Source: Halanaerobiaceae bacterium ANBcel28 (GTDB lineage: Bacteria > Bacillota > Halanaerobiia > Halanaerobiales > DTU029). From it: 64,000 bases of DNA. Positions 746 to 15,838 of the stretch are shown in pieces. Made by a program: the position numbers and the translations under genes. The stretch is from positions 77,019-141,018 of the forward strand of contig JBBJJH010000001.1 of assembly GCA_037623315.1 (NCBI GenBank), in the 5' to 3' direction. A model generated the notes under the pieces. The model was not told the origin of the DNA. It searched no databases and saw only the letters and a program-made list of their open reading frames with translations. Position 1 is the stretch's first letter, and each line of letters starts with the position of its first letter.

Positions 746-2101
746 TTAATAAAACGGATATTGGTCTGGAGATTCCCCTTTGCTTCCAATAATTTCAGGT
801 TCAAAAATATCTGTTTTTTTATCAAGAATTTTTTCAACAGATATATTTATCTTCCAATTATCTCCGAAATCGAATAAGTAGAGAAAATTTTTACCTACAT
901 ATAAATTCAATTCACCTATTTTTATTTCTTCGACATATGGTCCTCTATTACACATTTTAGAATTATAGAAAATATTTGAACCATATACTCCATCCATGTA
1001 GAAAGAATAGAGATGGTCATCGTCAAAATCATAGGCTTTTTGTATAATATTATGTAAATCCAACAAAGTGTGATTATCTGCAATTTTTATCTCTCGCCAC
1101 ACTCTATTATTGTATGAGCATTTAAAAATATAAATACCTTCCTTAAATTTTTCTTTCAGACTTGAAAGGGTCTTTGTTAGTACACCAGAAGGGAAAATAG
1201 GCCTAAAAGCATGATAGAAGATATCGACTTCTATTTTGTTTTTTATCTTTGTTTTATCATTTAATTTTGACTTGATTTTTGCTTTGAAATTTCTCTTTAG
1301 TTCAGCATGTTGCTGATCTGTTAAAATTTTGCTTTCTTTTACTTTGTCAAAAATAAAGTCTGTAAGTATCCCATTATAGTTGTTTTCTCGTTCAAAACTG
1401 TTTTGATATGGACGATTCCAATTTGTAATTTTCCTTTTATTATAAAGAACATCTGCTAATAATATCCCCAATTTATTTGCTATTATTTTACCAGCTTCAT
1501 ATTCTTGTGTACTTAATGATTCACATTCAATGACATCCCAAAAACCAAAATAATAGAAGTTTCTTAGAAAGGCATTCCTCTCAGAAAAATACACTTGATA
1601 ATATCCTCCATGTATTTTTACTTCTTCTCCTGCTTTTAAGGCACATAAAATCTCTAAAACACTATCAACAGTAGCCAGAGATAAGTTATCATGATTATGA
1701 ATCCCTATACTCTCCCAATCAATATCAACCCAAAATGTTTCCAATAAAAAGATATACTTCTCATAAAAATTCAATTTTTTATAAGTATTATAGCTATCAG
1801 AAACCATCAATTTAGGTTGACGATTTCTACTATCTACTAAACACAACTGACTTTTTGTACTTAAATGAAATAGCAAGTTCAAAAAGGGATAGGAAAACTG
1901 ATTACTTTTCTCAGTAACACCCTCTTCTTTATTAGTCATTAATGCATTCATCGCATAAAGATCTTTTTGTTTCAAATTCTTTTTTTTCAAAGTAAGAATC
2001 AAATCATTAGCACTTATATACTCCATAAATAGGTCAAAATCCTCGACTATTGATGGACAAAAACTTTCTTCTTTTGAAAGTACTTTTTTGTCTCTAGACA
2101 T
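746..2101 (-). CDS. pRiA4b ORF-3-like domain protein (C-terminal), unknown N-terminal domain
   Basis: C-terminal segment IYIFKCSYNNRVWREIKIADNHTLLDLHNIIQKAYDFDDDHLYSFYMDG matches the plasmid pRiA4b ORF-3 family signature (WRrI.v..TL.dLH.viq.amgW.d.HLheF). Confidence 0.55.
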   Translation of the reverse strand: MSRDKKVLSKEESFCPSIVEDFDLFMEYISANDLILTLKKKNLKQKDLYAMNALMTNKEEGVTEKSNQFSYPFLNLLFHLSTKSQLCLVDSRNRQPKLMVSDSYNTYKKLNFYEKYIFLLETFWVDIDWESIGIHNHDNLSLATVDSVLEILCALKAGEEVKIHGGYYQVYFSERNAFLRNFYYFGFWDVIECESLSTQEYEAGKIIANKLGILLADVLYNKRKITNWNRPYQNSFERENNYNGILTDFIFDKVKESKILTDQQHAELKRNFKAKIKSKLNDKTKIKNKIEVDIFYHAFRPIFPSGVLTKTLSSLKEKFKEGIYIFKCSYNNRVWREIKIADNHTLLDLHNIIQKAYDFDDDHLYSFYMDGVYGSNIFYNSKMCNRGPYVEEIKIGELNLYVGKNFLYLFDFGDNWKINISVEKILDKKTDIFEPEIIGSKGESPDQYPFY

Positions 2102-2176: not shown

Positions 2177-3745
2177 TTACATTCCCCAGATTACAATCTT
2201 CTTATCATTATATTCCTTCTCTTTTCTGAAAATTTTCTCCTCCCAGCCCTTATCTTCACTTTTATCAAAAATAAGCAAATGACCAGTATTTGTTCCCGTT
2301 CTATCCATATATTCTGCAGTTTGTTCAAGACCAAGGGCTATTGTTTTTTCTAGACTCTTATGTAAGATTTTAAGTTCAAGTACATATTTACTACTATCCT
2401 TCCACTCAATAAGTATATCAGTCCGCATTTTCCCAAGACCATATTCTCTATAAATTCTACCACCACCATTAACTACCCTCTGTAAAAAGGCCTGCAATAA
2501 AAGCTGGGGACCAGCTTCTTTATAAGCAAAGCGTTCAATCCAGGTTTCTGAGTTTTCACGAAAAAATTCCTGGAAATTTTCAATAAGTTTACTGACATTT
2601 AAGCTGCCATCTTCATTTACATACCACTCTGGTTCATATAAAGAACCTAAACTCATTTGACTTATATAATTCAATTCTCTAGGAATAACTTCTTTATAGA
2701 TTGGGTTTGAAATTTCTATTTTTCCGTTAATGTTGCTAACTAAACCTAAATCTATAAGATATTGTAAATCATCCTGTGGAATTTCTTTAATTGCCAGTCC
2801 TTCTAAAATCGGCTCGATTATATTTTTAACTCTTTCTTCTTTTAATTTATCCACCAGTTGATCAAGATGAGTGACTCTACTTAGAATTAATTTATCTTTA
2901 GCTTGATTAATTAAGTCTACAGTTATGGGATTGTTTCTATCTTTTCCTTCTGGCATTTCGAAACATGCTTCATAAGCTAAAGCATTTACTAGCCAGGGTT
3001 GCCCCTTTGTCAAATTATAAGCCAGTTTTATTGCATCTTCACTAAATTCCTGTCCAGTTGATTCTGTATGTTGTAAATATAAGAATTTTACATCATTTTC
3101 TCTAAAATTTCCCAATCTTATTGATTTTGCTTTGACATTAAAACAACTGCCACCTGTAATAATTTCATTATGCTCACTGGAATGAATTCTATAGTCTCTC
3201 ACATCTCTTACACCACATAATATTATGCTTTGAGGGAATGCATTAGGTCTGGTGTCATACCTACTTCTTAACTGACGTAGAACAGAAATAAGAGAATCTC
3301 CTACTAATGAATCTATTTCATCAATAAGAAGAACTGTTGGTAAATCATTTTCTTGAGTCCATTTTGTTAAAATATTTGCTAATGCAGTGTGAGAACTTTT
3401 AAGAATATTTTTAACATGCTTGCTCATTTTATTTTCATTTAAATATATTGTTTCCCTATTTTCAAGCTCACTTAAAATAGATTCCATCGCTATTTCTACA
3501 TTCTCTCTAGCCGCTTGAGCACTTTCAACATTTATATACAAGCACTTATATTTTCCACTTTTATTCAAAAGATCCATAAGGGTTAAAAGACTGCTTGTTT
3601 TACCACTCTGTCTGGGTGCATGTAGTACAAAATATTTTTTCTGATCAATTAAAGAAAATATCTCTTCTTTATTTATTCTCGCAGTTATTGGTACATGATA
3701 ATGATCTTTAGCCACTACCGGCCCAGCTGTATTGAAAAACTTCAC
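2177..3745 (-). CDS. AAA-like domain ATPase (FNTAGP-type), unknown function
   Basis: N-terminus MKFFNTAGPVVAKDHYHVPITARINKEE...VLHAPRQSGKTSSLL is the hallmark of the AAA-like domain family (FNTAGPV..HY...R + Walker A PRQSGKT). Confidence 0.6.
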   Translation of the reverse strand: MKFFNTAGPVVAKDHYHVPITARINKEEIFSLIDQKKYFVLHAPRQSGKTSSLLTLMDLLNKSGKYKCLYINVESAQAARENVEIAMESILSELENRETIYLNENKMSKHVKNILKSSHTALANILTKWTQENDLPTVLLIDEIDSLVGDSLISVLRQLRSRYDTRPNAFPQSIILCGVRDVRDYRIHSSEHNEIITGGSCFNVKAKSIRLGNFRENDVKFLYLQHTESTGQEFSEDAIKLAYNLTKGQPWLVNALAYEACFEMPEGKDRNNPITVDLINQAKDKLILSRVTHLDQLVDKLKEERVKNIIEPILEGLAIKEIPQDDLQYLIDLGLVSNINGKIEISNPIYKEVIPRELNYISQMSLGSLYEPEWYVNEDGSLNVSKLIENFQEFFRENSETWIERFAYKEAGPQLLLQAFLQRVVNGGGRIYREYGLGKMRTDILIEWKDSSKYVLELKILHKSLEKTIALGLEQTAEYMDRTGTNTGHLLIFDKSEDKGWEEKIFRKEKEYNDKKIVIWGM

Positions 3746-3952: not shown

Positions 3953-3998
3953 TTTGAAAAAAAGCCAGCCATTTATCCCTGTAAATGACTGGCTGAGT
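3953..3998 (-). terminator. rho-independent terminator ending the Wadjet/phd transcription unit
   Basis: Minus strand: CAGCCAGTCATTTA-caggga-TAAATGGCTGGCT followed by TTTTTTTCAAATA. Confidence 0.75.
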
Positions 3999-4079
3999 AG
4001 ATTGATTTGTATTATTCTTACATCTATAATATTTAAATAAGATTACTTTATCTGTACGTATAATTTCATACTTCATAAT

Positions 4080-4349
4080 TTACTTCCTTGAGGAAAGAGA
4101 CTGGCGTATTCCGTCAAAAGTATCCTTTATAGGTGCCACACGGCCTTGAGATAAATCTTCCTCTGATTCAGCCAGCATTCTTAGTAATTTTAGTTCTGAC
4201 TTCATTTGTTCATATTCTGCTAATCCAAGAATTACTGTATCTCTCCTACCATTGACTGTTATATATACTGGTTTTCTAGTTTCATGACAAACTTTTGATA
4301 TTTCACTATATTTATTCCTTAAATCAGCGAATGGTCTAATCATATCCAT
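4080..4349 (-). CDS. Phd/YefM family type II antitoxin (no cognate toxin ORF detected)
   Basis: 89 aa; ...RKPVYITVNGRRDTVILGLAEYEQMKSELKLL... typical Phd/YefM fold signature. Confidence 0.7.
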   Translation of the reverse strand: MDMIRPFADLRNKYSEISKVCHETRKPVYITVNGRRDTVILGLAEYEQMKSELKLLRMLAESEEDLSQGRVAPIKDTFDGIRQSLSSRK

Positions 4350-4447: not shown

Positions 4448-5749
4448 TTAGATCAATTCCCTCTTTATATCACTGATAAGCTCATCAATAAGCATTTCCT
4501 GATATCCTGCCATAGTATTTTTCTTAAGATAAGCAGCAAGATCTTTCAGTTTTTCATTCTTCAAATTCGCCAGTTTACTCAAACTTTTCGCACTTATTCT
4601 TTCTTTAGAAAGGGTTTTTTCGTAATCAGGCAGACTATATCTCCACAGTACTAATTTATCCCTATACCTACTTTTCAACCTATCTGCTATGCCTAAACCT
4701 TCTGGATCAAAATCTCCTGAGTAATAAATAATCGTATCTTCTTTAACCAGCATATCCAGTAGCAAAAGTGATGCTAGCTTTAACTGACCACTAGTACAGA
4801 CTAGGGACAAGTTATCATTACCCAAACTATCTATGATACTTGAAAAAACAGCAGGGTTTTCAAGTACAAAAACTTTGTCAAGAGGGCTTACTATTCTCTC
4901 AATAGAGCTTAGATTTTTAAGAGAGAGCAGCAGCGGTTCTTTCCTTTTACTAAAACCCTTCCATCCCTGATGAATCTCTCCATTACTTTCTGCCTCCAGT
5001 CCATAACAGAGGGTGTAATTGGCTACTTCATTGATTAAGATACCAGCATTATAGAATAGCTCTGCCCTTTCTTCAGCATTATTGGGTTTCTCACTGTTAA
5101 ATTGATATACTAAAGCATATTGAAGTAGGATATCAAGGTCTGTACCATGGTCAAAGGCATGTGGATTTTTTGTAATCTGAGAAGCAAAAACTGCCAGACG
5201 TGTCTTTTTTCCCCCATGGATAGGCAAGTTGTTTAAGGCACGAGCAGTCTGATAAATATCTATCTTAAGTTTTTCTGAATCAATATTATATCTTTTTAAG
5301 AGAAGACTATAGGCATTGTTTTTATTAGAGTAAAGATCCATAAGCCACTTAGCTGCTGGTCTGCCTTCCACCTGATTTATAATTTTTCCAAAAAATTTTT
5401 TTCTCTCAGACAAGTAAATATATCGTTCTTGCTTATATGAAATGATCTCTTCTTCTAAAAAATATTCTTTCAATATATCTTCTAACAATATACCGTCAAA
5501 CCTTGTTCCCTGTAGGGCTTCCTCAAATTTTTCAAGTCTTATTGTGGCCTGTTTCTGCCTGCTATAATCCTTTCTAAAATAGCCTGTTAAAGCCTCTTTT
5601 TCCTGCTGGCTTAGATTGCTAAGAACTATTTTACCACCAATTTTTCCTAGTGATTTATATTTCTTTTTCATCTTCAAAAAAACCCTGGAAAAGCCAGGAT
5701 TTTTTTTAAAGTATTCAACACAGTCTTCTAGCAACTTATTATTATTCAT
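4448..5749 (-). CDS. jetD: Wadjet JetD (DUF2399/TIGR02679, Toprim-containing)
   Basis: Toprim-like motif IIYYSGDFDPEGLGIADRL near C-terminus; last gene of the jetABCD arrangement. Start taken at ATG 5749 (AGAGG SD 9 nt upstream); track start 5758 is TTG. Confidence 0.75.
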   Translation of the reverse strand: MNNNKLLEDCVEYFKKNPGFSRVFLKMKKKYKSLGKIGGKIVLSNLSQQEKEALTGYFRKDYSRQKQATIRLEKFEEALQGTRFDGILLEDILKEYFLEEEIISYKQERYIYLSERKKFFGKIINQVEGRPAAKWLMDLYSNKNNAYSLLLKRYNIDSEKLKIDIYQTARALNNLPIHGGKKTRLAVFASQITKNPHAFDHGTDLDILLQYALVYQFNSEKPNNAEERAELFYNAGILINEVANYTLCYGLEAESNGEIHQGWKGFSKRKEPLLLSLKNLSSIERIVSPLDKVFVLENPAVFSSIIDSLGNDNLSLVCTSGQLKLASLLLLDMLVKEDTIIYYSGDFDPEGLGIADRLKSRYRDKLVLWRYSLPDYEKTLSKERISAKSLSKLANLKNEKLKDLAAYLKKNTMAGYQEMLIDELISDIKRELI

Positions 5750-5804
5750 AACCATCAACCTCTGATATATTATATATAAGAAAAGTTAGGATCAATTTTG
5801 CAGT

Positions 5805-6209
5805 TTAGCCAATAGAAGCGACTGCTAAATCTAATGTATTAGCAGCTTTTATTAATCTTTTGTCTAAAGTTACTAAAGTAGAATTCTTTCTTCTGCAAGT
5901 AACTAAGTACATCGCATCATAAGCAGGATGATCAATTTTACATGATAGCGATATAGCTTCTTCATAAACATCTTCAGCTTTGATGAATTGATCTACTATT
6001 TCTGTCATTTGCCTTGTTTTAGTAAGCAAATCATCTAAAGGATAGTTTTGAATAGAATGATATTTCCACATTACATTAGATGCTTCATAAATATATAAAG
6101 AAGGAGCTATAATCCAATCAGCATCTTTTAGAATATCAATTAGTATTTTTTGTTTGGGTCTTCCCATGACTATTTCAACGGCAGCACTAACATCAATAGT
6201 AAAAATCAT
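5805..6209 (-). CDS. vapC: PIN-domain toxin VapC
   Basis: 134 aa; MIFTIDVSAAVEIV...EASNV...DAMYLV...TLDKRL: PIN acidic residues at canonical positions; 4-bp ATGA overlap with upstream antitoxin. Confidence 0.8.
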   Translation of the reverse strand: MIFTIDVSAAVEIVMGRPKQKILIDILKDADWIIAPSLYIYEASNVMWKYHSIQNYPLDDLLTKTRQMTEIVDQFIKAEDVYEEAISLSCKIDHPAYDAMYLVTCRRKNSTLVTLDKRLIKAANTLDLAVASIG

Positions 6210-6454
6210 CGTTCTCTATCCTCTCTGATAAGAGGAACAGGATCAAGAATATCTTGGGCTTTTTTATTACCAGTTTCATCTATAATACTGTTAAAGAAAA
6301 TTTTTCTTCGTTCTTTATTATGTTTTTCAATTTCTAAGGCTTTTTCAAGTAAAACAATAGTTTCTTGAGTTATACTTCTTCTTTCAGTTTCAGCAAGTTG
6401 AACAATTTTTTGATAGATATGTTCGGGTAAGTCTCTAACTTGTAAAGAAGGCAT
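6206..6454 (-). CDS. vapB: ribbon-helix-helix antitoxin VapB
   Basis: MPSLQVRDLPEHIYQKIVQLAETERRSITQETIVLLEKAL = RHH (CopG/Arc) motif; AAAGGTGG SD 7 nt upstream of this ATG (track start 6472 lies in the SD). Confidence 0.75.
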   Translation of the reverse strand: MPSLQVRDLPEHIYQKIVQLAETERRSITQETIVLLEKALEIEKHNKERRKIFFNSIIDETGNKKAQDILDPVPLIREDRER

Positions 6455-6536
6455 ATTGATTCCACCTTTCATATTTGTCTAGATATATTATAACATATTG
6501 CAAAGCTTCATGCAATGTGCATGAATAACAACACAG

Positions 6537-9500
6537 TTAGCTTACAAGTGTTCTCACATTACCATCCCATTGATAACGAATAACTGATACAACATCAGCA
6601 TTATTAGGCCTTACTAATTCACAGATAGAAAGTGATGGTACTGTATCATAATCACCCCATAATACCTGAGAGTTTATCACAAAACTAAGATCTAACTCCT
6701 CTAATAGTCTAAACATATCCCTGATATTATTGCTGTCAACACCAGCAAAAGCCTCATCAAGTGATATAATTCTCGGGCAATCCTTACGACCATTTTCATA
6801 GCGGGCATATACAGCAGAGAACAAAGGAACATACATGGCCATTGCCTTTTCTCCCCCACTAAATCTATTAAAGGCATTGTTTGTAAGTTCTCTTTTGGGT
6901 TCATTTGTTTTCTGATAATAGAGACGAAATTCAAACCATTTGCGGTAATCAAGGATATCTTTCATGATAGCATGGAAGGTCTGGTTTGATCCACTATCTT
7001 CCATCACCTTTCTGACTTCACTTATCTTTGATCTAAAGTGTGCAGATAGTTTTTTAAAATCCTCTTCTTTCAGAAGACTGGCTTCTGATTTCAATATCTC
7101 TACTAATTCCCGAGTATCCATCTGCTCCTCAGTTTCTGCTACTCTACTTTTCCAGCGCAGGCTAAATGACAAGCCACTTGAGGTGTCCATACTTTCCATT
7201 AACTTATTCATTTTCTTAACCCACTGTTCTGCATGATAGATCCTGGCTCTGATTTTTTTGCTAATAGTGTTTGCCAGAATATCTTCAAACAATTGACGAT
7301 CACTTTCTTTTAGTAATTGTTCATTTTCAACAATAGATTCTTCTATAAAATCAACAAGTGTATAAAAATTAACATCTTTACCTTTAATACGAGCAGTAAA
7401 TTCTAACCTTTTAAAGTCTTCTATCATTTGATTAATATCTAAATCATCTATTTGCTTTATTTCTTCTTGCCAATCATCTTTAGTAAATAGATGTTCAGCC
7501 ATTAAATTATACTCAGTCAGATATTGTCTGTTCTGATAATATTTATCTGTCAAACTAGTAATGTAATCTATTTTTGATCTTTTCTCATCATCTGATCTTA
7601 AGCTCTTATATACTCCCCTGGCAGATGCAAACAAATCCTCTTCGTCTTCTCGACTATAGACATATGCTAAATTAATTTCCTTTTCAAAGGACAATTTAGA
7701 GATAGTATCAATCTCTTTTGCTCTTAGAATCCTCTTTTCTAAGCCAGCTAAATTATTAGCTATCCTCTGATATTTTTCCTGAGAAACAGCAGATCTTTTT
7801 GACTCTTTTTGCAGCTCTTCAGGTATTTCTTTTAAGACATTTATACATTGGTCAATTTCCCTTTCAATTTCTTGATAATCTGTTTTCTCCAGGATCTCTC
7901 GATAGCTGGCTATTATCTCGCTATTTTCTTTCAACTCCCGCTCAAGCCTATTGAGATCATAGAAGAGGTTGTCTATATCCTGCAGAACATCTTCAATCTG
8001 CTCCTGGCCATTACTTAGCTGATACCTTTTATTGACAAGCAAGGTATGTTTGCTACTTAACTCACTTAAGTGATCCTTATAATCTTCAGCTGCCTCAAGT
8101 GCTTCCTGATAGGCATTCAGATTAAGTGGAAGATAAATTTTTGCCGTAATTTCCTGTACCTGTTCAGATACTTCTTTTAGCTTTTTATATATTTTTTCAG
8201 CTTCTTCTTCCTTGCGTTTGGTTTCCTTTTGATGGTTTTCTAAGCTCAAACTAGCATTTTGAAGCATTTTTAGTCCAGTTTCCAGGTCATCTTTTCCAGG
8301 AAATCTTCTAAACTCTTCCTGAATAAGAGCTAATAACTCCTGTAGTTTTTTAATTTTAATTATCTCTTCCTCTATGTGACTATTTAGATCTCTAATTTCT
8401 GCTTCTAATCCCTCAATAACTTGCTGGCGATATTCTTCGCGGGCTTGAACACCAATATACTTAGCCTCAAAAGAAGCACTGGCCTTTCCCCTTAAAATAC
8501 CAATGCTAAATTCACCCTTTTCATTAAGAAATGTTAGTGAATCCCCCTTATTTAAGACAATACTCTTTAGCGCCTGATCAATAATAGCAGGGGTAATCTG
8601 ACTATCTTCTACTTTTTCTGCCTTTAAGAACAATGAAAGTTCATGGGTCATATATTGTGGATTGGAAAATATATATTTATCAGCCATACCTCTATCCATA
8701 TTAAGGACATCTTCTTCGCGGTACTCCTCGGGAACAATTAAGGCATCCAGTAGTCCCATGTCTATTAAGGCCTCTTCTAAAACTCCCCTGGCTTCTTGAG
8801 AAAGATCATCGCGAAAATCAACTGCTTTATAGAAGGGTAGGAAAGGAATTCCTTCCTCAGCCAGTCTTTCACGATTGCGAAGAACCTTTTCTTCTCTAGG
8901 GGGTTCTGGATCCTTTTTCTTTTTCCATTCCTCCAATTCTTTTTCCTTCTCTTGAAGCTCTTCTTGATAGCTATCTATAGTTGCTTCTATACTGGAATTC
9001 TCTCTATTAATATTACTTTCCAGCAAAGATGTTTTCTTTCTAAGCTCTACAAGAATATCATCAAAACTAGACCCTTCACCATAGCTCCTTACTATTCTTG
9101 AAAGATTTTGCATTTCCTCTTCAGATAATTTCAGCAGTAAATTATTTTTTTCCCAGCGATAGACCTTTTCTAAATATTCATCACGGGTCTCATCAAATAG
9201 GGATTGTACTCGTTCAAGCTCTCTACTGGCATCATCTTTTTCTTTTTTTGCCTGATCAAGAATCTGTAAAGCACGATCATATTCTACTTTTTGCTTTTTT
9301 TCCTCTGCTAGCTTTTTTAGCCCCTCTGCTATCCTCTCTCTATATCTAAGCAACTCATTTTTTAAATAAGTAAAGTCATATTCCCGTGGAGGCTTTTGAG
9401 CTATTTCTTCACTGGCAAAAGAATGTTCATCAAACTTAAACTCTTCTGCAAATTCAGCCATCTCTTTTAGGATAGTATTAATCTCTTTATCTAAATACTG

Positions 9501-10640
9501 ATATTCTTCTTCAAGATTTTTGTATTGACTTTGTAATTTCTTTTCTCTTTCTTGCTTTTCCTCCAGGTTTGTCTTCTTAGCCTTGTGCCGTTTTTGCAAT
9601 TCCTTTTCTTTTTCTTCCCTTTTATCAATTTCAATTTTGGCCTGATAGCTATCATGTTTTTCCAATTTCTGTTTTTTGTGTTCATATAATGTCTGCCTAG
9701 AATTAAGTTCATCAATTTTCTCTTCAGCTTCTTTATAAGCTGAATGAAATTCTTCCATAGCATTTTGCTGTTTTTCCAATTCTTCCTTGCTATCTTTTAA
9801 CTCCTTTTGAGCATTCAGATAAGTTTTTGCTTTTTCTAATAAAAGAAATCTATTATAGCGGTCATATTCACTTTTCAATTTATCTGCAGCTGCTTTACTT
9901 TCTTTTAAAGCCTCTAGCTGGGTTTTAATATTATCCATATTCTCAATGGCTTCTGACATTGGCCGCAAATCTTCATCAGATAGTGGCTGGATGGCATTAT
10001 TCATAATGTCATATATAACAGTTGGCTTAAAATCCTTGGATAGTTTAGGTGTGCGCAATTGCACAAGTAGTTTAACCAATTCATCATATTCCTCTATATT
10101 TTCAAAACCAAAGAGAAGCTTATTGACCATTTCCATATAATTTCCCTGACTATCGTAAAATTCACCACCATTGGCAACTCGATTTCTCAACTCAATCTTA
10201 CTTAAAGGTACTTTGTCCCCCATTTCCTTATAAAGAAAGAAATCTTTTCCGATTCTTCTGCCATCAGTAAGAGAAAACCCCCAGGAATTTAAAGGTTTTC
10301 CCCGTCTAGCTTGAAATCCCATGCCAATAGTTAGATATCTACCTGAATCCTTTTTCGCAAATTCCATATATAGATAGCCAGTACGCTCATCCTGTCCATT
10401 TTCATCTTCTCCAAGTAGGTAATTGTCCATCTTTCGAGCTCTAGAGCCAAAAGGATCCAATCTTTCTGGACTCCTATTACCATCAAGCAAAAGTGGTATA
10501 AAACTCTGCATGGTTACAGACTTACCTGATCCGTTTGACCCTCTTAGTAATAATCTACCATTTGAAAAATGAAACTCTTCTTCATCATAATACCAAAAAT
10601 TAAGCAAGCCCACTTTGTTTATTATCCATTTATCCTGCAT
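6537..10640 (-). CDS. jetC: Wadjet JetC, SMC-like ATPase (TIGR02680)
   Basis: 1367 aa; Walker A RGSNGSGKSVTMQ at N-terminus; long coiled coil; C-terminal RFSGGEKAMAMYVPLF (signature-like) and ISLDEAFAGVD Walker B; 1-bp overlap with jetB. Confidence 0.85.
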   Translation of the reverse strand: MQDKWIINKVGLLNFWYYDEEEFHFSNGRLLLRGSNGSGKSVTMQSFIPLLLDGNRSPERLDPFGSRARKMDNYLLGEDENGQDERTGYLYMEFAKKDSGRYLTIGMGFQARRGKPLNSWGFSLTDGRRIGKDFFLYKEMGDKVPLSKIELRNRVANGGEFYDSQGNYMEMVNKLLFGFENIEEYDELVKLLVQLRTPKLSKDFKPTVIYDIMNNAIQPLSDEDLRPMSEAIENMDNIKTQLEALKESKAAADKLKSEYDRYNRFLLLEKAKTYLNAQKELKDSKEELEKQQNAMEEFHSAYKEAEEKIDELNSRQTLYEHKKQKLEKHDSYQAKIEIDKREEKEKELQKRHKAKKTNLEEKQEREKKLQSQYKNLEEEYQYLDKEINTILKEMAEFAEEFKFDEHSFASEEIAQKPPREYDFTYLKNELLRYRERIAEGLKKLAEEKKQKVEYDRALQILDQAKKEKDDASRELERVQSLFDETRDEYLEKVYRWEKNNLLLKLSEEEMQNLSRIVRSYGEGSSFDDILVELRKKTSLLESNINRENSSIEATIDSYQEELQEKEKELEEWKKKKDPEPPREEKVLRNRERLAEEGIPFLPFYKAVDFRDDLSQEARGVLEEALIDMGLLDALIVPEEYREEDVLNMDRGMADKYIFSNPQYMTHELSLFLKAEKVEDSQITPAIIDQALKSIVLNKGDSLTFLNEKGEFSIGILRGKASASFEAKYIGVQAREEYRQQVIEGLEAEIRDLNSHIEEEIIKIKKLQELLALIQEEFRRFPGKDDLETGLKMLQNASLSLENHQKETKRKEEEAEKIYKKLKEVSEQVQEITAKIYLPLNLNAYQEALEAAEDYKDHLSELSSKHTLLVNKRYQLSNGQEQIEDVLQDIDNLFYDLNRLERELKENSEIIASYREILEKTDYQEIEREIDQCINVLKEIPEELQKESKRSAVSQEKYQRIANNLAGLEKRILRAKEIDTISKLSFEKEINLAYVYSREDEEDLFASARGVYKSLRSDDEKRSKIDYITSLTDKYYQNRQYLTEYNLMAEHLFTKDDWQEEIKQIDDLDINQMIEDFKRLEFTARIKGKDVNFYTLVDFIEESIVENEQLLKESDRQLFEDILANTISKKIRARIYHAEQWVKKMNKLMESMDTSSGLSFSLRWKSRVAETEEQMDTRELVEILKSEASLLKEEDFKKLSAHFRSKISEVRKVMEDSGSNQTFHAIMKDILDYRKWFEFRLYYQKTNEPKRELTNNAFNRFSGGEKAMAMYVPLFSAVYARYENGRKDCPRIISLDEAFAGVDSNNIRDMFRLLEELDLSFVINSQVLWGDYDTVPSLSICELVRPNNADVVSVIRYQWDGNVRTLVS

Positions 10641-11794
10641 TATTCTCCACCTTCTATCTTAAAATCATCTGGATATTTACCTATAATCTTACCCACTAAA
10701 GGAAGTATCCTTATTTCTTTCCTACTATTATCTGCTTCTAACATACTAAAACTTTTCATATATACTATAAGCTCTTCTACTAGCTTTTCTATACTCATCT
10801 CTCTATAGCCTTTGCTCCAGCCTGAATGATAGCGCTGATGACAAAGAACTACTATATTCGCAAATTTGACCTCTGAGATAGTTATGGTATCATCTTCTTT
10901 TTTGCTAAGATCCCCTTCTTCCAGCATTTCTCTGATAATAGCATTCATCTGTAATACAATATCTGATATACTCTTATTATCAGGAAAAACATCTTTAAAA
11001 TATTTGCTTTCATCAAGAGAAATAAAGGCACCATTTTTATGAACATGGAGTTCACTTTCTAGCAGATCCTCTACATCTTTTTTTAGCATATTGCGATAGT
11101 TTTTTATATAAAGGTAATCAGCATCATCAACACCCTCATTATAGACTACAGGAGACATAAAAAGACGGCGGTATACCCTGTTGCGCCTGACCCTTCCCCT
11201 ATCTCGATCCAGATCCAACCATTCGCCTTTTTCGATATCTTTGTATGAGGAATAATTGCTTATATTTCCGGCAAAATTCAGCATAAAGTATTTAGAAAGA
11301 CCAGTGTTTTCATATAGTACCTCTTCTTCAGCTGAACTAATAAAATTAGAGTCACTACCATCATTTGTTTTTATAAGGAAAATATCTTCTGCAAAGCGAA
11401 GCACTTTTACAAGATGTCTGCGATGATTGTATAGTGTCCAATCAAGCTCTATATCTCTATCTTGTGGAAAAATAGCTTCAATAAAATCTGTCAGCTGTGA
11501 GAGTATAAACTGTTCTTCTGCTCCTTTATCCTCAAGAAAGGTCAACAACAAGGTTAAAAAGGCATATTCTAATTTGTCAGTGAATTCTTCAATACCCATC
11601 CAGGATTCTGGTTTACCAGGTAACTTCTCTAATTTTATAAGATAGGGATTGATTATAAGTCGATATCCCAGCCTGTCCTGTAAAAAAGTTTTTAATTTAG
11701 GATAGGCATCTTTTATTCGATAGTAAAGTTCTTTGTCTTCTTCCTTACTAATCCAGTATCTTTCCAGTAATATCTCCAGTTCTTTCATAAGCAA
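10640..11794 (-). CDS. jetB: Wadjet JetB (DUF2398/TIGR02678, MksE-like)
   Basis: 384 aa acidic protein sandwiched between kleisin-like jetA and SMC-like jetC in the canonical order. Confidence 0.7.
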   Translation of the reverse strand: MLMKELEILLERYWISKEEDKELYYRIKDAYPKLKTFLQDRLGYRLIINPYLIKLEKLPGKPESWMGIEEFTDKLEYAFLTLLLTFLEDKGAEEQFILSQLTDFIEAIFPQDRDIELDWTLYNHRRHLVKVLRFAEDIFLIKTNDGSDSNFISSAEEEVLYENTGLSKYFMLNFAGNISNYSSYKDIEKGEWLDLDRDRGRVRRNRVYRRLFMSPVVYNEGVDDADYLYIKNYRNMLKKDVEDLLESELHVHKNGAFISLDESKYFKDVFPDNKSISDIVLQMNAIIREMLEEGDLSKKEDDTITISEVKFANIVVLCHQRYHSGWSKGYREMSIEKLVEELIVYMKSFSMLEADNSRKEIRILPLVGKIIGKYPDDFKIEGGE

Positions 11795-11804
11795 TCCTTT
11801 CTCT

Positions 11805-13325
11805 TTAAACTACACTTTGTTCAATTTCTACTTCCTGTTGAATATTTTCGACCAAAAACATAATCTTATAAGCAGGCATGGTTAGATTCCCATCTTCACA
11901 TCTAAGGATACAATCTTGCTCATTTACTGGCTTAATTAATTTGAATTCTCGTCCATCTTCTGTCTTTGCTAAATTGTTATGAGATGCGGTAGCTTTCCCT
12001 ATCCATTTTAATAATGTTATTCGGACATGTGATGGAATGAGGGGTAATTCTGAAAAATCAATTATATTCTCCTGAATATAGCTATCAATTACCTCCTGCT
12101 CCTGCTTCCTTTCTCGAATATATATTTTAAGTAATTTTTTCTTTTTTTTGGACTTGTCCTCTATAGGAATTCTTTTTCTCTTTTCCCGATAACGTCTAAC
12201 TCGTGGTTTGATTTTTAATTCCACTGCTGCCTCATCATAGATACCACTATTAATACTTTCGGTTTCTCTATTGATATTTGCTTTGATGTGACGGCTTCGA
12301 AAAATACCAAAACTAAGAGATGATAATTTGTTTGCTTCGTCCATATCCTGACAGTCTAAAAACAACTCACAAAGTTTCCGATACTCCTCTTTCCGATTGG
12401 CAGCACTATTACGATTTTCAATAATCTGGGAAGCAAAGCGTGTAATTTTCCTGATAATTTCGTTAGTAATTTCGAATAATTTTACTGCCTCACTCTCAGC
12501 CTCTCCACTCCCTAGAAACCAATCGCGAAAGTTTTTCCATCTGCCGGCTATATTTTCTTCTAAATCTTGATCTGTGACTTCATTTTCCAGTCTAGGTATT
12601 GACTTCTCAAATTGCCATGCCTTCTTCAATACCTTTTCCACCTGAGAGTCACTAAGTTTTTTAATTGTTTCTTCTATAATATAAAGATTTTTCTGTAGCT
12701 CTTTAACAAACTCTCTTAAGTAATCTATGACAGCATCTTTATAAGCAATAAATTCCCGAGTTCTCATCATTTCTTCTGCTTTTATACTATAAAAGCTACG
12801 AATATAATCCTGATAGTTTTGATTCAAGCGTTTAAAGTCTGTATTTAAATCCCTCCACCAGAGACCTACAACTTTTAGATCCTCTTCTGCCATAGAGGAG
12901 AATTTCTGAACCTCATCTTTAATCCGCTCAAGCAAGGTGGGTTCCAGAGAAGCCCCTTCCACAAAAATATTCTCTAACTTAATAGTCATTCGCTCTATTT
13001 CCACAGAGTATTCGGAGAGTTGATATCTAAATTGCTTATTCCTGAATTCTTCTATAGTTGCCGATTTAGAGGTATCCTGCATAGCCACTAAATTACCCCA
13101 ATCCAACAAGACGTCAAGATCCTGCTTACACTGTTCCATAGTATAATCTTTAAAAATCTCATGTTTTTTTAATTCCTGAAAGACCTCTTCTTTATACATC
13201 CAGTATTTGATTTTTTCATATTGCTCATAGAAATACCTTAGTATAGGACGATAACGCCATGAGTTATCTGTATTAAGATATTTCACTTCTACAAGCGGCT
13301 TTGTCAGCTTGGAATTAATATTCAT
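11805..13325 (-). CDS. jetA: Wadjet JetA (DUF2397/TIGR02677, MksF-like kleisin)
   Basis: 506 aa, first gene of the jetABCD arrangement. Confidence 0.7.
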   Translation of the reverse strand: MNINSKLTKPLVEVKYLNTDNSWRYRPILRYFYEQYEKIKYWMYKEEVFQELKKHEIFKDYTMEQCKQDLDVLLDWGNLVAMQDTSKSATIEEFRNKQFRYQLSEYSVEIERMTIKLENIFVEGASLEPTLLERIKDEVQKFSSMAEEDLKVVGLWWRDLNTDFKRLNQNYQDYIRSFYSIKAEEMMRTREFIAYKDAVIDYLREFVKELQKNLYIIEETIKKLSDSQVEKVLKKAWQFEKSIPRLENEVTDQDLEENIAGRWKNFRDWFLGSGEAESEAVKLFEITNEIIRKITRFASQIIENRNSAANRKEEYRKLCELFLDCQDMDEANKLSSLSFGIFRSRHIKANINRETESINSGIYDEAAVELKIKPRVRRYREKRKRIPIEDKSKKKKKLLKIYIRERKQEQEVIDSYIQENIIDFSELPLIPSHVRITLLKWIGKATASHNNLAKTEDGREFKLIKPVNEQDCILRCEDGNLTMPAYKIMFLVENIQQEVEIEQSVV

Positions 13326-13379
13326 AATCTACTCCTTATTCATGAATTATATGTATAATTTTGTTAGTATTATATACTT

Positions 13380-13409
13380 TTCAATAATAATTATAAGTAA
13401 TAATAGTAT
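13380..13409 (-). promoter_or_regulatory. consensus sigma-A promoter of jetA (TTGACA-18-TATAAT)
   Basis: Minus strand: TTGACA (13409..13404), 18-bp spacer, TATAAT (13385..13380); about 55 nt upstream of the jetA ATG. Confidence 0.7.
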
Positions 13410-13532
13410 CTTGTGTCAAGGAAGTATAGAAGAAGCTCAGTGCAAAACAGCCATATTCGCTGTACTTATCAAGTTTAAAATTCTTTTACTTAAGTATTTA
13501 CATTTCATTTCAATTCTTACAAAAGGTTTAGA

Positions 13533-14090
13533 CTACCAGTTACTAATAATTCCCAGCTGTATAAATGCAACTGAAAGTAAGCTCAATAACCTATATTTAG
13601 AATTTCTTAAGTAATAATGCTCCTGCCTATTAAATATATCCATATTAGCTCTTGCAAAATTATCGACATCAAAGTCTATTTTTTCTCTTTCTAGATATCT
13701 TTTTAATTCATTTACAGCTTCCTTAATTGTCCCATCATTTATATTATTTATTTGCATATGATTATTTGCAACAAGAAATGCCTTTGTTTCTGTACCAAGT
13801 GAAAAAGCAAGATCACAGGAATTAATATAGAAGTTAGATATGCAATAGCTTTCTATTGATGGATAGCTTAATAATAAAACACCACCCCGCATATCATCGT
13901 TATCATATGGATCTCTTAATTTTTGAATTAATTCTTTAATAAATTCAATATCTTCATTTGATTCTGGATCTCTATCAAATAAATAATATATCGCTGTATT
14001 ATCAACAGGGAAACTGTATTTAGTTATTAATTCCTCATATAAATTATCTAAGTAACTATTTTGGTCTTTAATATAAGAAATTATTAAGTT
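13533..14090 (-). pseudogene. Toprim-like C-terminal half of an OLD-family nuclease, in a frame shifted relative to the upstream ATPase ORF; no in-frame ATG/GTG/TTG before residue 67
   Basis: I translated the minus strand by hand. The frame is open from 14090 (just after an in-frame TAA at 14093..14091) down to the stop at 13533, 186 codons. The only canonical start is the ATG at 13892. The 66 start-less codons contain IYYLFDRDPES (a DxD Toprim-like motif), and SYPSIESY lies downstream. Confidence 0.45.
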
Positions 14091-15238
14091 TTATCATAGT
14101 TTGGAAGCCCCTCAAAAATACCGCTCAAATACATTTTTTCTAAATTCTGAGCTAGTCTAGGTTGTTCATCAGAAAATCTCTTAACCCAACTACCTTCTGA
14201 TCCATTAAAATTAACAGAATAAACCTGATCAGGTCTTAGAATTGAAGTGCTTAATAAATTAGTAGAATGGGAGACAAAGAAAATTTGAGAAGAGATTGAT
14301 GATTTCATAAAGTGTTTAATCAATAATTCTTCTAGTTCATTATGAAATCCACTTGAAAATTCATCTACTAAAAGCATACCTTTCTTATTTATAATATTTA
14401 AAAAAGAAGGTAATATATTTAGCAGAGTTTGATTTCCTAATGATTCTTCCTCATAGGGAATAACTGTAGCTATATCTTTTCTTCTAAAAAAAACAGTTTT
14501 ATTATTATCTATAGTTCTTAAATTTACCTTTCCATCAGAAAATTCCTTAGAATATTCTATTACCTGGTCAAACTTATGCTTCTCAAAAAAACTATTAATA
14601 CTTGCAGTACCCTGGTTTTTTAAAAACTCATCTAATAATAATTCTTCTTTACCATAATGAATTACATCACTATCAAAAGCATTAATATATATCGAATTCT
14701 GTAAATATTCAAACCAAGTCTTTAATATTTCATTACCTGCAAATCTTGTATTGAAATATAATGTTCTTAAAAATAATGTTTTATTATCCAGATCATCCTC
14801 ATCGTAAATAGTTTCTTTTTCGTCAACTATATAAGACCGTGCATTAAGGCCCATTCTATCTAGTAATAACTTATCTTCTATATGCAATTTCTCAAAAATA
14901 ATATTCTTTAGTGGATTGTTTATCACTGAATATCTAATTTCTTTATCCTTTATCTTAAAATAATAATCAATAGAAAATTCTTCTTCATCAGAGAATAAAC
15001 ATTTATAAATTCTTGATTTAGTATTTTTTTCTCTAAATAGCATATCTAATAAAAATTTTATTGCAATAAGAATATTAGATTTTCCAGAAGCATTTGCACC
15101 AACAAACATTATACCTTTTAGTATACCATTATCAGCAACATTACTATCTTCTAAAAATCTATAATTAGTTCGAGAAAAATCAATTTCAGTCTTCTCTTTA
15201 AAAGATTTAAAATTTTTGATTTCAACTTTTGATAACAT
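14084..15238 (-). CDS. OLD-family / AAA_21-type ABC ATPase (N-terminal half of an Old/GajA-like nuclease)
   Basis: MLSKVEIKNFKSFKEKTEIDF...FVGANASGKSNILIAIKFL (Walker A), LLVDEFSSGFH (Walker B); ends ...LSGIFEGLPNYDKT*, where FEG resembles the first Toprim glutamate motif. Confidence 0.7.
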   Translation of the reverse strand: MLSKVEIKNFKSFKEKTEIDFSRTNYRFLEDSNVADNGILKGIMFVGANASGKSNILIAIKFLLDMLFREKNTKSRIYKCLFSDEEEFSIDYYFKIKDKEIRYSVINNPLKNIIFEKLHIEDKLLLDRMGLNARSYIVDEKETIYDEDDLDNKTLFLRTLYFNTRFAGNEILKTWFEYLQNSIYINAFDSDVIHYGKEELLLDEFLKNQGTASINSFFEKHKFDQVIEYSKEFSDGKVNLRTIDNNKTVFFRRKDIATVIPYEEESLGNQTLLNILPSFLNIINKKGMLLVDEFSSGFHNELEELLIKHFMKSSISSQIFFVSHSTNLLSTSILRPDQVYSVNFNGSEGSWVKRFSDEQPRLAQNLEKMYLSGIFEGLPNYDKT

Positions 15239-15365: not shown

Positions 15366-15412
15366 CTATGCAAAACAGCCAGCCATTTATCACATAAACG
15401 GCTGACTGTTTC
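15366..15412 (-). terminator. rho-independent terminator downstream of ywbE
   Basis: Minus strand: AACAGTCAGCCGTTTATGTGATAAATGGCTGGCTGTT followed by TTTGCAT. Confidence 0.6.
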
Positions 15413-15448: not shown

Positions 15449-15649
15449 CTATTTAATTTCTTTAACCCTACCAACAATTCCATCCTCCAGCATTACTTTA
15501 ATTCCATGTGGATGACTGGAAGAATTAGTGAGTATCTTTTTAACCACTCCTTCAGTAAGATTACCACTTCTTTGATCCTGCTTTTTTACAATCTTTACTG
15601 TATCACCTATTTTAATGTCACTTCTATTTCTACCATCCATTTGCTTCAC
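15449..15649 (-). CDS. ywbE: YwbE family small protein (DUF2196)
   Basis: 66 aa; ...GDTVKIVKKQDQRSGNLTEGVVKKILT...GIKVMLEDGIVGRVKEI matches the YwbE signature. Confidence 0.65.
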   Translation of the reverse strand: MKQMDGRNRSDIKIGDTVKIVKKQDQRSGNLTEGVVKKILTNSSSHPHGIKVMLEDGIVGRVKEIK

Positions 15650-15706
15650 CCTTTTCTCTCTCTTCCATTATTCTATTGGAATTAATTTAAATCTAATATA
15701 CACTTT

Positions 15707-15736
15707 TTCTATAATAATTATAAGTAATAATAAGAT
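15707..15736 (-). promoter_or_regulatory. consensus sigma-A promoter of ywbE, near-identical copy of the jetA promoter module
   Basis: Minus strand: TTGACA (15736..15731), 18-bp spacer, TATAAT (15712..15707). Confidence 0.7.
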
Positions 15737-15838
15737 ATCGTGTCAAGGAAAGACAGAAAGCCCCAGTAAGTATTATTCCTTATTACTGGGGAACTTATTT
15801 TAAATAGACCACACATATACTTTAGTAATAATAAATTT

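What the first reader, a model, noticed from the sequence alone, without database searches (positions are those of the whole stretch)
4448..13410. Complete type I Wadjet (JetABCD) condensin-like anti-plasmid operon with its own consensus promoter and terminator
Gene order, sizes and motifs match Wadjet: jetA (506 aa), jetB (384 aa), jetC (1367 aa SMC-like ATPase, Walker A GSNGSGKS) and jetD (Toprim GDFDPEG). The genes are tightly packed, with a 1-bp jetB/jetC overlap. Transcription is framed by a TTGACA-18-TATAAT promoter and a strong intrinsic terminator at 3953-3998. Local GC in jetC (about 42-50% in sampled 60-mers) is clearly above the surrounding 20-30% genes, suggesting horizontal acquisition. 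The operon is likely unannotated as a defence locus in an anaerobe of this type.
Basis: partly seen in the sequence, partly recalled or inferred. Interest (0 to 1): 0.55.

Follow-up and report, generated by a model that had tools for sequence, protein, structure and literature searches.

The report
Type II Wadjet operon with embedded toxin-antitoxin
This is an intact, ordinary anti-plasmid Wadjet operon of type II (not type I as first read), unusual only because a small self-contained VapBC toxin-antitoxin cassette is inserted between its motor gene jetC and its nuclease gene jetD.

Summary
The jetA-jetB-jetC-jetD operon is real. It lies on the minus strand at 13325-4448 and all four genes are intact. 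The genome is Natronospora cellulosivora (Halanaerobiales). All four proteins match the TYPE II profiles, not type I: PADLOC JetA2/B2/C2/D2, TIGR02677/78/80/79, and DUF2397, DUF2398, DUF3323+DUF2399. JetA, JetB and JetC align full-length to the solved Neobacillus vireti type II complex (PDB 9QE0/9QE1). A confident JetD model matches MksG, JetD and topoisomerase VI-A.

The consensus promoter (13419-13390), the 1-nt jetB/jetC overlap and the terminator (3994-3963) are all confirmed.

"Tightly packed" is wrong. jetC and jetD are 787 nt apart, and the gap holds a same-strand vapB-vapC (RHH antitoxin + PIN toxin) cassette with its own conserved promoter and palindrome. In 158 related type II loci this gap has a median of -3 to -4 nt and a maximum of 250 nt, and none carries such a cassette. 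The same cassette occurs alone, in unrelated contexts, in Halocella and in a metagenome contig. It is therefore a secondary insertion.

The terminator lies about 450 nt beyond jetD, after an orphan phd antitoxin and a toxin stub. The GC excess is small (34-35% against 31.6%).

Verdict: a new member of a known kind, with a rare "embedded" cassette. Interest is low to moderate.

The parts
13390..13419 (-). jetA promoter: TTGACA, 18-nt spacer, TATAAT. It is part of a 54-nt module (13378-13431) that recurs at 15705-15758.
   Evidence: 12/12 consensus match. Two perfect sites occur in the window against 0.13 expected. The site is conserved upstream of jetA in L002. The 54-nt repeat is 85% identical.
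11805..13325 (-). jetA, type II kleisin (506 aa)
   Evidence: PADLOC JetA2 1.8e-205. TIGR02677 326 bits against a 166-bit cut-off. DUF2397 1.4e-151. PDB 9qe0_E JetA 2.5e-87, residues 8-490.
10640..11788 (-). jetB, type II tandem-KITE subunit (382 aa from the ATG at 11788; the longest ORF starts at a TTG at 11794). It overlaps the jetC start by 1 nt.
   Evidence: PADLOC JetB2 8.1e-152. TIGR02678 211 bits against 125. DUF2398. PDB 9qe0_D JetB 3.3e-86. A 382-aa gene is called on the identical contig L001.
6537..10640 (-). jetC, SMC-like ABC ATPase (1367 aa). It has Walker A GSNGSGKS, signature FSGGEK and Walker B IISLDEAF.
   Evidence: PADLOC JetC2 1651 bits against 104 bits for the best JetC1 model. 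TIGR02680 889 bits against 463. SbcC_Walker_B. PDB 9qe0_A JetC 1.1e-254, residues 3-1366 aligned to 5-1357 of 1371. Motifs read.
6487..6524 (-). Promoter and operator of the embedded cassette. The palindrome CATGCA-cat-TGCATG (6523-6509) overlaps the -35 TTGCAT (6515-6510). A 17-nt spacer follows, then the extended -10 TGtTATAAT (-10 hexamer at 6492-6487).
   Evidence: Read. Conserved in the independent cassettes L091 and L092. The 15-mer is found only in these three loci out of 172, and 0.08 matches are expected per window at up to 2 mismatches.
6206..6454 (-). vapB, ribbon-helix-helix antitoxin (82 aa from the ATG at 6454, which has an AAGGTGGA ribosome-binding site; the longest ORF starts at 6472). 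It overlaps vapC by 4 nt.
   Evidence: FitA-like_RHH 24.8 bits, just under the 27-bit cut-off. Homologous cassettes encode 82-83 aa antitoxins. DNA alignment.
5805..6209 (-). vapC, PIN-domain toxin (134 aa). The acidic residues D6, E42, D98 and D116 are conserved.
   Evidence: Pfam PIN 35.1 bits against 23.6. 87-90% identical to proteins that NCBI names 'VapC family toxin' in Halocella. Invariant or near-invariant columns.
4448..5749 (-). jetD, type II Toprim nuclease (433 aa). It has E297 (ENP) and D346xD348 (GDFDPEG), numbered from the ATG.
   Evidence: PADLOC JetD2 3.6e-155. TIGR02679 234 bits against 196. DUF3323+DUF2399. 100% identical to NCBI P0001. Invariant residues. AlphaFold2 pLDDT 93.5. 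Foldseek hits to MksG 8b7f, JetD 7til and Topo VI-A 1d3y.
4080..4349 (-). Orphan phd/YefM-family antitoxin gene, downstream of jetD and upstream of the terminator.
   Evidence: PhdYeFM_antitox 2.5e-13. TIGR01552 31 bits against 20.8.
4040..4076 (-). Remnant of the partner toxin gene. The start codon lies 4 nt after the phd stop. About 11 plausible codons (MKYEIIRTDKV) are followed by unrelated sequence that runs into the terminator.
   Evidence: Sequence. No family hit for the 53-aa ORF. This is an inference.
3963..3994 (-). Intrinsic terminator that ends the transcription unit.
   Evidence: 13-bp stem with 5 G-C pairs, then T7. -18.1 kcal/mol, z = -5.1, 0 of 200 shuffles fold as well.

Best explanation
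The locus is an intact type II Wadjet (JetA2-B2-C2-D2) anti-plasmid system of Natronospora cellulosivora. It is transcribed on the minus strand from a consensus sigma-70 promoter at 13419-13390 to the terminator at 3994-3963.

Mechanism, by homology with the reconstituted Neobacillus vireti system. JetC dimers form an ATP-driven SMC motor together with the JetA kleisin and the tandem-KITE JetB. The motor loop-extrudes DNA, recognises small circular molecules, and then licenses the Toprim nuclease JetD to cut them at random positions. The chromosome and linear DNA are spared.

The embedded cassette. After this operon lineage arose, a 728-nt autonomous vapB-vapC type II toxin-antitoxin cassette (about 6532-5805) was inserted 4-6 nt after the jetC stop codon, in the same orientation. 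It carries its own palindrome-bearing promoter. I read it as a secondary and essentially selfish or neutral 'embedded' passenger. It did not damage any jet gene.

Expression of jetD. jetD is probably still expressed by read-through from the jetA promoter and additionally from the autoregulated TA promoter, because no terminator separates the genes. The cassette may incidentally stabilise the island against loss.

What is shown: identity and type of all six genes, their intactness, the rarity of the insertion, and the independence of the cassette.
What is inferred: the transcription pattern, the activity of both systems, and the absence of functional coupling.
For: - Type II identity. PADLOC JetA2/B2/C2/D2 match at E 1e-152 to 0 with full-length coverage. 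Type I models hit only JetC, and weakly. All four NCBIfam equivalogs score above their cut-offs. The Pfam domains are DUF2397, DUF2398 and DUF3323+DUF2399.
- Architecture. There are full-length hits to PDB 9QE0/9QE1 JetA/B/C of N. vireti. Protein sizes of 506/382/1367 aa compare with 500/389/1371. The paper reports ATP- and JetABCD-dependent, Mn-dependent cleavage of circular DNA only.
- JetD. pLDDT is 93.5. The fold matches MksG, JetD and Topo VI-A. E297, D346 and D348 are invariant in 27 homologues.
- The insertion is secondary. In 80 genome loci and 78 metagenome loci the jetC-jetD gap has a median of -3 and -4 nt and a maximum of 250 nt, and none has PIN or RHH genes. The closest relatives (79, 78, 72 and 69% JetD identity) have gaps of 158, 142, 106 and 9 nt without a TA pair.
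- The cassette is autonomous. It is 89% and 84% identical at the DNA level to solitary cassettes in L091 and in the Halocella sp. SP3-1 chromosome, from the promoter to the vapC stop, in unrelated contexts.
- Composition differs. Third-codon-position GC (GC3) of the cassette is 0.12-0.17, against 0.28-0.32 in the surrounding jet genes.
- Read-through is possible. No terminator-like site or significant RNA structure lies in the internal spacers.
- The embedding of defence or TA-like genes in the same orientation inside multi-gene defence systems is a described phenomenon.
Against: - No expression or activity data exist for this organism.
- A strong TA promoter and operator placed between jetC and jetD could change the JetD:JetABC ratio, so 'neutral' is an assumption.
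- The RHH antitoxin scores just under Pfam's gathering threshold (24.8 against 27 bits).
- The survey covers about 158 loci, partly redundant and mostly Bacillota, out of more than 470 candidates per collection. Embedding elsewhere in the family cannot be excluded.
- The closest relatives already have unusually long jetC-jetD spacers (106-158 nt) of unknown content, so this junction may have a history I did not resolve.
Confidence: 0.75

Rival explanations
1. One reading: a compact type I Wadjet operon whose four genes are tightly packed and directly framed by promoter and terminator.
For: Gene order, Walker A, the Toprim motif and the jetB/jetC overlap are as described. JetC gives weak hits to JetC1 models (104 bits).
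Against: There are no hits to any JetA1, JetB1 or JetD1 model, or to DUF3375, DUF4194, DUF3322 or DUF2220. JetB is 382 aa (tandem KITE), not about 240 aa. JetC is 1367 aa. All four type II equivalogs score above their cut-offs. A 787-nt gap with two extra genes separates jetC from jetD. phd lies between jetD and the terminator.
Confidence: 0.01
2. The vapBC insertion has uncoupled or reduced jetD expression. The locus then behaves as an attenuated or nuclease-poor Wadjet (JetABC without enough JetD), on its way to decay or tolerated because it lets the host keep plasmids.
For: In most relatives jetC and jetD overlap or abut (median -3 to -4 nt), which suggests translational coupling that is lost here. 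TA promoters are normally autorepressed. A predicted hairpin can pair with the jetD ribosome-binding site, though it is weak (z = -1.5). The neighbouring PDC-M12 system and the phd partner toxin are visibly degraded, so the island is eroding.
Against: All four jet ORFs are full-length with invariant catalytic residues. No terminator lies between jetC and jetD. jetD keeps the AGAGG ribosome-binding site and start context of its relatives. The closest relatives already lack jetC-jetD coupling, with 106-158 nt spacers, and yet keep intact genes.
Confidence: 0.14
3. The embedded VapBC is a functional partner of Wadjet. It could be a back-up abortive or growth-arrest module released when Wadjet is inhibited. 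Alternatively it could act as a regulator that ties jetD transcription to antitoxin stability. The analogy is PrrC embedded in EcoprrI.
For: The cassette has the same orientation and sits immediately upstream of the nuclease gene. Its promoter would read into jetD. 'Guilt by embedding' has a good record for other defence systems. TA modules are frequent defence genes.
Against: This is a single instance among 158 related loci. The same cassette is found alone next to metabolic genes. It matches no PADLOC model. Its composition shows a separate origin.
Confidence: 0.1

Closest known systems
Type II Wadjet (JetABCD-II) of Neobacillus vireti LMG 21834 (PDB 9QE0/9QE1; bioRxiv 10.1101/2025.03.10.642339)
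   Same: The four families are the same and in the same order. Protein sizes are nearly the same: JetA 506 against 500 aa, JetB 382 against 389, JetC 1367 against 1371. Sequence alignments are full-length (E 2.5e-87, 3.3e-86, 1.1e-254). The ATPase motifs are intact, and JetD has a Toprim plus CAP-like fold.
   Different: The host is different (a Halanaerobiales anaerobe). A vapBC cassette sits between jetC and jetD. An orphan phd gene precedes the terminator. No biochemical data exist for this locus.
Type I Wadjet / MksBEFG (E. coli GF4-3, P. aeruginosa PA14, C. glutamicum)
   Same: The overall logic is the same: an SMC motor plus kleisin and KITE sense circular DNA, and a Toprim nuclease cuts it. 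JetD is related in fold to 7til and 8b7f.
   Different: Type I has different JetA, JetB and JetD families (DUF3375, DUF4194, DUF3322/DUF2220), none of which is detected here. Its JetB is a single KITE and its JetC is shorter. Its JetD N-terminal region differs, and its subunits are not interchangeable with type II.
VapBC / FitAB-type type II toxin-antitoxin modules
   Same: A small N-terminal RHH antitoxin gene overlaps a 134-aa PIN toxin gene by 4 nt. The four PIN acidic residues are conserved. A palindrome overlaps the promoter.
   Different: Its location is inside a Wadjet operon. Activity has not been tested. The antitoxin scores slightly below the Pfam threshold.
Defence genes 'embedded' in multi-gene defence systems (Payne et al., bioRxiv 10.1101/2024.01.29.577857)
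   Same: Extra genes are nested between genes of a defence operon in the same orientation, without disrupting them.
   Different: [quoted passage not shown] I found no report for Wadjet. Here the passenger is a classic TA pair, seen once.

Membership tests
Wadjet type II (JetABCD-II) | JetA kleisin of the DUF2397 / TIGR02677 family | tested here: met
   TIGR02677 326 bits (cut-off 166), DUF2397 1.4e-151, PADLOC JetA2 1.8e-205. PDB JetA 9qe0_E 2.5e-87.
Wadjet type II (JetABCD-II) | Large (about 385 aa) tandem-KITE JetB of the DUF2398 / TIGR02678 family | tested here: met
   382-384 aa. TIGR02678 211 bits (cut-off 125), DUF2398 4.2e-106, JetB2 8.1e-152. Aligns to residues 16-386 of 9qe0_D. The four-WHD fold itself was not modelled.
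Wadjet type II (JetABCD-II) | Long (about 1370 aa) SMC-like JetC (TIGR02680) with split ABC ATPase head, coiled coil and hinge | tested here: met
   TIGR02680 889 bits (cut-off 463). Collinear with the solved JetC 9qe0_A over residues 3-1366. Walker A, signature and Walker B motifs are present. The coiled coil and hinge are inferred from homology, not modelled, because the protein exceeds the 1200-aa limit.
Wadjet type II (JetABCD-II) | JetD with DUF3323 N-terminal region and DUF2399 Toprim domain (TIGR02679), with catalytic E and DxD | tested here: met
   TIGR02679 234 bits (cut-off 196). DUF3323 3.3e-48 and DUF2399 1.2e-32. E297, D346 and D348 invariant. The model matches MksG, JetD and Topo VI-A.
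Wadjet type II (JetABCD-II) | Contiguous, co-oriented jetA-jetB-jetC-jetD operon | tested here: inconclusive
   Order and strand are met. Contiguity is broken at jetC/jetD by two embedded genes (787 nt, against at most 250 nt in 158 relatives).
Wadjet type II (JetABCD-II) | ATP-dependent cleavage of circular DNA and reduced plasmid transformation | not testable with these tools
   Known for N. vireti only.
Wadjet type I | JetA DUF3375, JetB DUF4194 (about 240 aa), JetD DUF3322+DUF2220 | tested here: not met
   None of these Pfam families, and no PADLOC JetA1, JetB1 or JetD1 model, matches at E <= 1e-3. Only weak JetC1 hits occur (at most 104 bits, against 1651 for JetC2).
VapBC type II toxin-antitoxin | PIN-domain toxin with the conserved acidic quartet | tested here: met
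   PIN 35.1 bits (cut-off 23.6). E42, D98 and D116 are invariant and D6 is at least 90% conserved in 14 homologues. Homologues are named VapC family toxin.
VapBC type II toxin-antitoxin | Small DNA-binding antitoxin gene immediately upstream, overlapping the toxin gene, with a palindromic operator at the promoter | tested here: inconclusive
   The 82-aa ORF overlaps vapC by 4 nt. FitA-like RHH scores 24.8 bits, below the 27-bit cut-off. The palindrome and promoter are conserved in three independent cassettes. Binding and neutralisation were not tested.
Embedded defence genes (guilt-by-embedding) | Up to 3 extra co-oriented genes nested between genes of an otherwise complete defence system | tested here: met
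   Two co-oriented genes lie between jetC and jetD, and all jet genes are intact. Definition as.

The most novel reading that the evidence does not exclude
The VapBC cassette is not a mere passenger but a working part of this Wadjet. Its autorepressed promoter would control the nuclease gene jetD, and/or VapC would act as a back-up growth-arrest effector when Wadjet is blocked. That would make it the first toxin-antitoxin module functionally embedded in an SMC-based anti-plasmid system.
Probability: 0.1. Interest if true: 0.55.

Novelty: new member of a known kind. Interest (0 to 1): 0.25.

Why it matters
This adds an intact type II Wadjet from a haloalkaliphilic, cellulolytic Halanaerobiales anaerobe. 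That is practically relevant, because Wadjet blocks plasmid uptake and deleting it made Clostridium cellulovorans far more transformable. So jetABCD is a likely obstacle to genetic work in Natronospora.

The embedded vapBC shows that the jetC-jetD junction can accept a promoter-bearing cassette without loss of any jet gene. It also extends the known 'embedding' of genes inside defence operons to Wadjet. If the cassette's promoter really feeds jetD, the locus would be a natural experiment on how much the nuclease:motor ratio matters. Otherwise the locus is ordinary.

Tried and rejected
- Exact-sequence look-ups of JetD (TTG start), VapC and P0001 found nothing on record. JetA gave only a 5.8-kb Logan contig identical to the window.
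- VapC homologue P0204 and JetD homologue P0059 share a contig length of 20311, which suggested a second co-occurrence. The contig carries no Wadjet genes.
- Cassette DNA against the plasmid and phage collections gave no match, so no vehicle was identified.
- JetD against PDB sequences gave no hit. A fold search was needed instead.
- L087 was tried to delimit the cassette, but its antitoxin is replaced, so it was uninformative for the left end. L091 and L092 solved this.
- Rfam and tRNA scans found nothing in or next to the locus, and no integrase or tRNA marks an island border.
- Flanking direct repeats of the cassette: only an 11-nt word (TATAATATATC) at 6492-6482 and 5774-5764. It was reached by 14 of 5000 shuffles of the two spacers. 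It is suggestive of a microhomology junction but unproven.
- A search for a YwbE/DUF2196 gene near Wadjet in the other loci found none.
- A whole-JetC structure prediction was not possible (1367 aa exceeds the 1200-aa limit). Homology to 9QE0 was used instead.

Full report
OBSERVATION

- JetC contains GSNGSGKS near its N-terminus, and FSGGEK followed by IISLDEAF near its C-terminus.
- JetD contains VLENP and GDFDPEG.
- The jetB stop and the jetC start share one base at 10640. This is also seen in the gene calls of an identical 5.8-kb public contig, L001.
- The likely true starts are the ATG at 11788 for jetB (382 aa) and the ATG at 5749 for jetD. The latter gives 433 aa, identical to the NCBI protein P0001 of Natronospora cellulosivora, and has the same AGAGGTTGA-N5-ATG context as its relatives.

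The organism is a member of Halanaerobiales.

IDENTITY: TYPE II, NOT TYPE I

PADLOC models assign the four proteins to JetA2, JetB2, JetC2 and JetD2, with full-length matches.
- Scores are 681, 504, 1651 and 515 bits.
- The only type I hits are weak ones to JetC1 (at most 104 bits). There are none to JetA1, JetB1 or JetD1.

NCBIfam TIGR02677, 02678, 02680 and 02679 all score above their curated cut-offs: 326/166, 211/125, 889/463 and 234/196 bits. Pfam gives DUF2397, DUF2398, SbcC_Walker_B, and DUF3323+DUF2399. These are the type II families.

JetA, JetB and JetC match, over their whole lengths, the chains of PDB 9QE0/9QE1 (E = 2.5e-87, 3.3e-86, 1.1e-254). That entry is the Neobacillus vireti type II JetABC complex. 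By collinear homology, JetC has the head, elbow, long coiled coil and channel-less hinge architecture of a solved JetC.

JetD has no sequence relative in the PDB. An AlphaFold2 model built on 27 homologues is confident (pLDDT 93.5). Its best structural matches are the C. glutamicum MksG nuclease, P. aeruginosa JetD and topoisomerase VI-A. E297, D346 and D348 are invariant in the family alignment.

MECHANISM BY HOMOLOGY (INFERRED)

For the N. vireti system, cleavage needs JetABC, JetD, ATP and Mn2+. It acts on circular or artificially circularised DNA only, at random positions. In vivo restriction waned for DNA circles of 50 kb and beyond. Nothing in the sequence here argues against the same extrusion-then-cleavage mechanism.

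jetC stops at 6537 and jetD starts at 5749. The 787 nt in between hold two co-oriented genes.
- The first is an 82-aa ribbon-helix-helix antitoxin gene (6454-6206). It scores 24.8 bits against FitA-like RHH, just below the cut-off.
- The second is a 134-aa PIN toxin gene (6209-5805) that overlaps the first by 4 nt. It scores 35.1 bits against PIN, above the cut-off.
- Homologues of the toxin are common in Halanaerobiales and are named VapC-family toxins. The PIN acidic residues are conserved.

Upstream lies TTGCAT-17-TGtTATAAT, with the perfect palindrome CATGCA-cat-TGCATG across the -35.

Two independent homologous cassettes carry the same promoter, palindrome, antitoxin and toxin. One is on a metagenome contig (L091). 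The other is in the Halocella sp. SP3-1 chromosome between TRAP-transporter operons (L092).
- DNA identity to the window is 89% and 84%.
- The identity runs from 4-6 nt after the jetC stop exactly to the vapC stop.
- The 15-nt palindrome occurs in only these three of the 172 loci fetched.

The unit is therefore a self-contained module of about 728 nt (about 6532-5805).

IS THE INSERTION USUAL?

No.
- In 80 genome loci that contain both the jetC end and the jetD start, the gap has a median of -3 nt and a maximum of 250 nt.
- In 78 metagenome loci it has a median of -4 nt and a maximum of 240 nt.
- None contains a PIN or RHH homologue.
- The four closest relatives (79-69% JetD identity) have gaps of 158, 142, 106 and 9 nt with no TA pair.

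The cassette's third-codon-position GC (GC3) is 0.12-0.17, whereas the jet genes around it have 0.28-0.32. Together these results show a secondary insertion into a pre-existing operon.

Other homologues of the toxin sit in ordinary chromosomal contexts. No copy was found in the plasmid or phage collections.

[quoted passage not shown] I found no report of it for Wadjet.

TRANSCRIPTION FRAME

The TTGACA-18-TATAAT promoter is real as a sequence. It is a 12/12 match, and 0.13 perfect sites are expected per window. It is conserved, together with part of the leader, in front of jetA in the closest relative L002.

No terminator-like site or significantly stable RNA structure lies in the jetC-vapB, vapC-jetD or jetD-phd spacers. 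A transcript of about 9.4 kb ending at the strong terminator 3994-3963 (z = -5.1) is therefore plausible.

That terminator is not jetD's own. Between jetD and the terminator lie a phd/YefM-family antitoxin gene (4349-4080) and the first 11 or so codons of a toxin gene that then dissolves into the terminator hairpin. This is an orphan antitoxin with a deleted partner.

COMPOSITION AND ORIGIN
- The jet genes are 34-35% GC against a window mean of 31.6%. Elsewhere the maximum for an 8.9-kb stretch is 34.2%.
- Their GC3 is 1.5-2.5 SD above that of 44 other ORFs.
- jetC 60-mers average 35%, not 42-50%.
- The flanks of the operon in L002 are unrelated to those here, apart from a distant PRiA4_ORF3-like gene on the other side.
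- The neighbourhood has defence-island character. A PDC-M12A ATPase with a 5'-truncated M12B partner lies directly upstream. An FRG-domain PDC-S15 candidate lies at 21661-22473.

Horizontal acquisition is therefore likely, but the compositional signal is modest.

A SECOND COPY OF THE PROMOTER

The perfect promoter occurs twice in the window. A 54-nt module at 13378-13431 is repeated at 15705-15758 with 85% identity. The upstream copy precedes a DUF2196/YwbE-family gene (15640-15449).

The 2.3 kb between the two copies holds that gene, its terminator and the degraded PDC-M12 pair. L002's single jetA promoter shares its 3' edge with the upstream copy and its leader with the jetA copy. This pattern would fit insertion of the 2.3-kb block into an ancestral jetA promoter-leader with duplication of the promoter. 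I did not test this further.

ASSESSMENT

The finding is a correct recognition of a Wadjet operon with the wrong subtype and an incomplete anatomy. It is a new member of a well-described kind. The one unusual feature is the embedded vapBC cassette at the motor/nuclease junction.

I consider it most likely a selfish or neutral passenger that leaves the system functional (0.75 for the whole account). The alternatives are that it attenuates jetD expression (0.14) or is functionally coupled (0.10). Only transcript mapping and deletion constructs can separate these.

Noticed in passing
window 15705-15758 and 13378-13431 (minus strand): The jetA consensus promoter is one of two copies of a 54-nt module (85% identical, 2327 nt apart). 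The upstream copy drives a DUF2196/YwbE-family gene at 15449-15640. The single jetA promoter of the closest relative L002 shares features with both copies. This suggests the 2.3-kb block between the copies was inserted into the ancestral jetA promoter-leader.
   Followed up: partly
window 14084-15238 and 13533-14083 (minus strand): Directly upstream of jetA lies an AbiLi-like / PDC-M12A AAA_21 ATPase (full-length match). It is followed by an ORF that matches only positions 77-228 of 251 of PDC-M12B and has no start codon before M at 13892. This is a candidate defence pair whose second gene has lost its 5' end.
   Followed up: partly
window 4080-4349 and 4040-4076 (minus strand): An orphan phd/YefM antitoxin gene lies between jetD and the terminator. 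Its partner toxin is reduced to about 11 codons before the terminator hairpin.
   Followed up: partly
window 5764-5774 and 6482-6492: The 11-nt word TATAATATATC (minus strand) occurs both as the -10 region of the vapBC promoter and just before the jetD ribosome-binding site, where relatives have a different sequence. It was reached by 14 of 5000 shuffles. It may be a microhomology junction of the insertion, and it puts a second TATAAT in front of jetD.
   Followed up: partly
L002 9834-9991, L088 563-704, L090 7090-7195: The closest relatives of this operon have unusually long non-coding jetC-jetD spacers of 106-158 nt, partly conserved between L002 and L090. In most type II loci the two genes overlap or abut. 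This junction may be a recurrent insertion or deletion site, or may hold a regulatory element.
   Followed up: no
window 3958-3977, 15372-15391, 16798-16813 (also 13441-13453, 18378-18390): Several terminator hairpins in the window share the motif AAATGGCTGGCTGTTTT. This looks like a repeated terminator-type element rather than independent sequences.
   Followed up: no
window 26123-31021 and 31014-32987 (minus strand): A 1632-aa protein has DUF3686 ('ATPase involved in DNA repair'), DUF7902 and a C-terminal AAA domain. It overlaps a 657-aa gene with no Pfam or PADLOC match, and two small membrane-like ORFs follow. This looks like an uncharacterised multi-gene module.
   Followed up: no
window 21661-22473 (minus strand): An FRG-domain protein matches the candidate defence family PDC-S15 (4.9e-45), next to an HD-domain protein at 21071-21640.
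   Followed up: no
window 746-2101 and 2177-3745 (minus strand): Downstream of the terminator lie a 522-aa AAA_22/AAA_35 ATPase (weak PDC-S01 hit) and a protein with a PRiA4_ORF3-like domain. A distant homologue of the latter lies next to the Wadjet operon of L002, but on the opposite side.
   Followed up: no
window 53843-53961 (minus strand): FMN riboswitch (RF00050, 117 bits) upstream of the gene at 53187-53756.
   Followed up: no
window 38934-40892 (minus strand): A UvrD-family helicase gives strong matches to GajB and to DRT-associated helicase models (up to 1e-64). No partner genes were examined, and it may simply be a housekeeping helicase.
   Followed up: no
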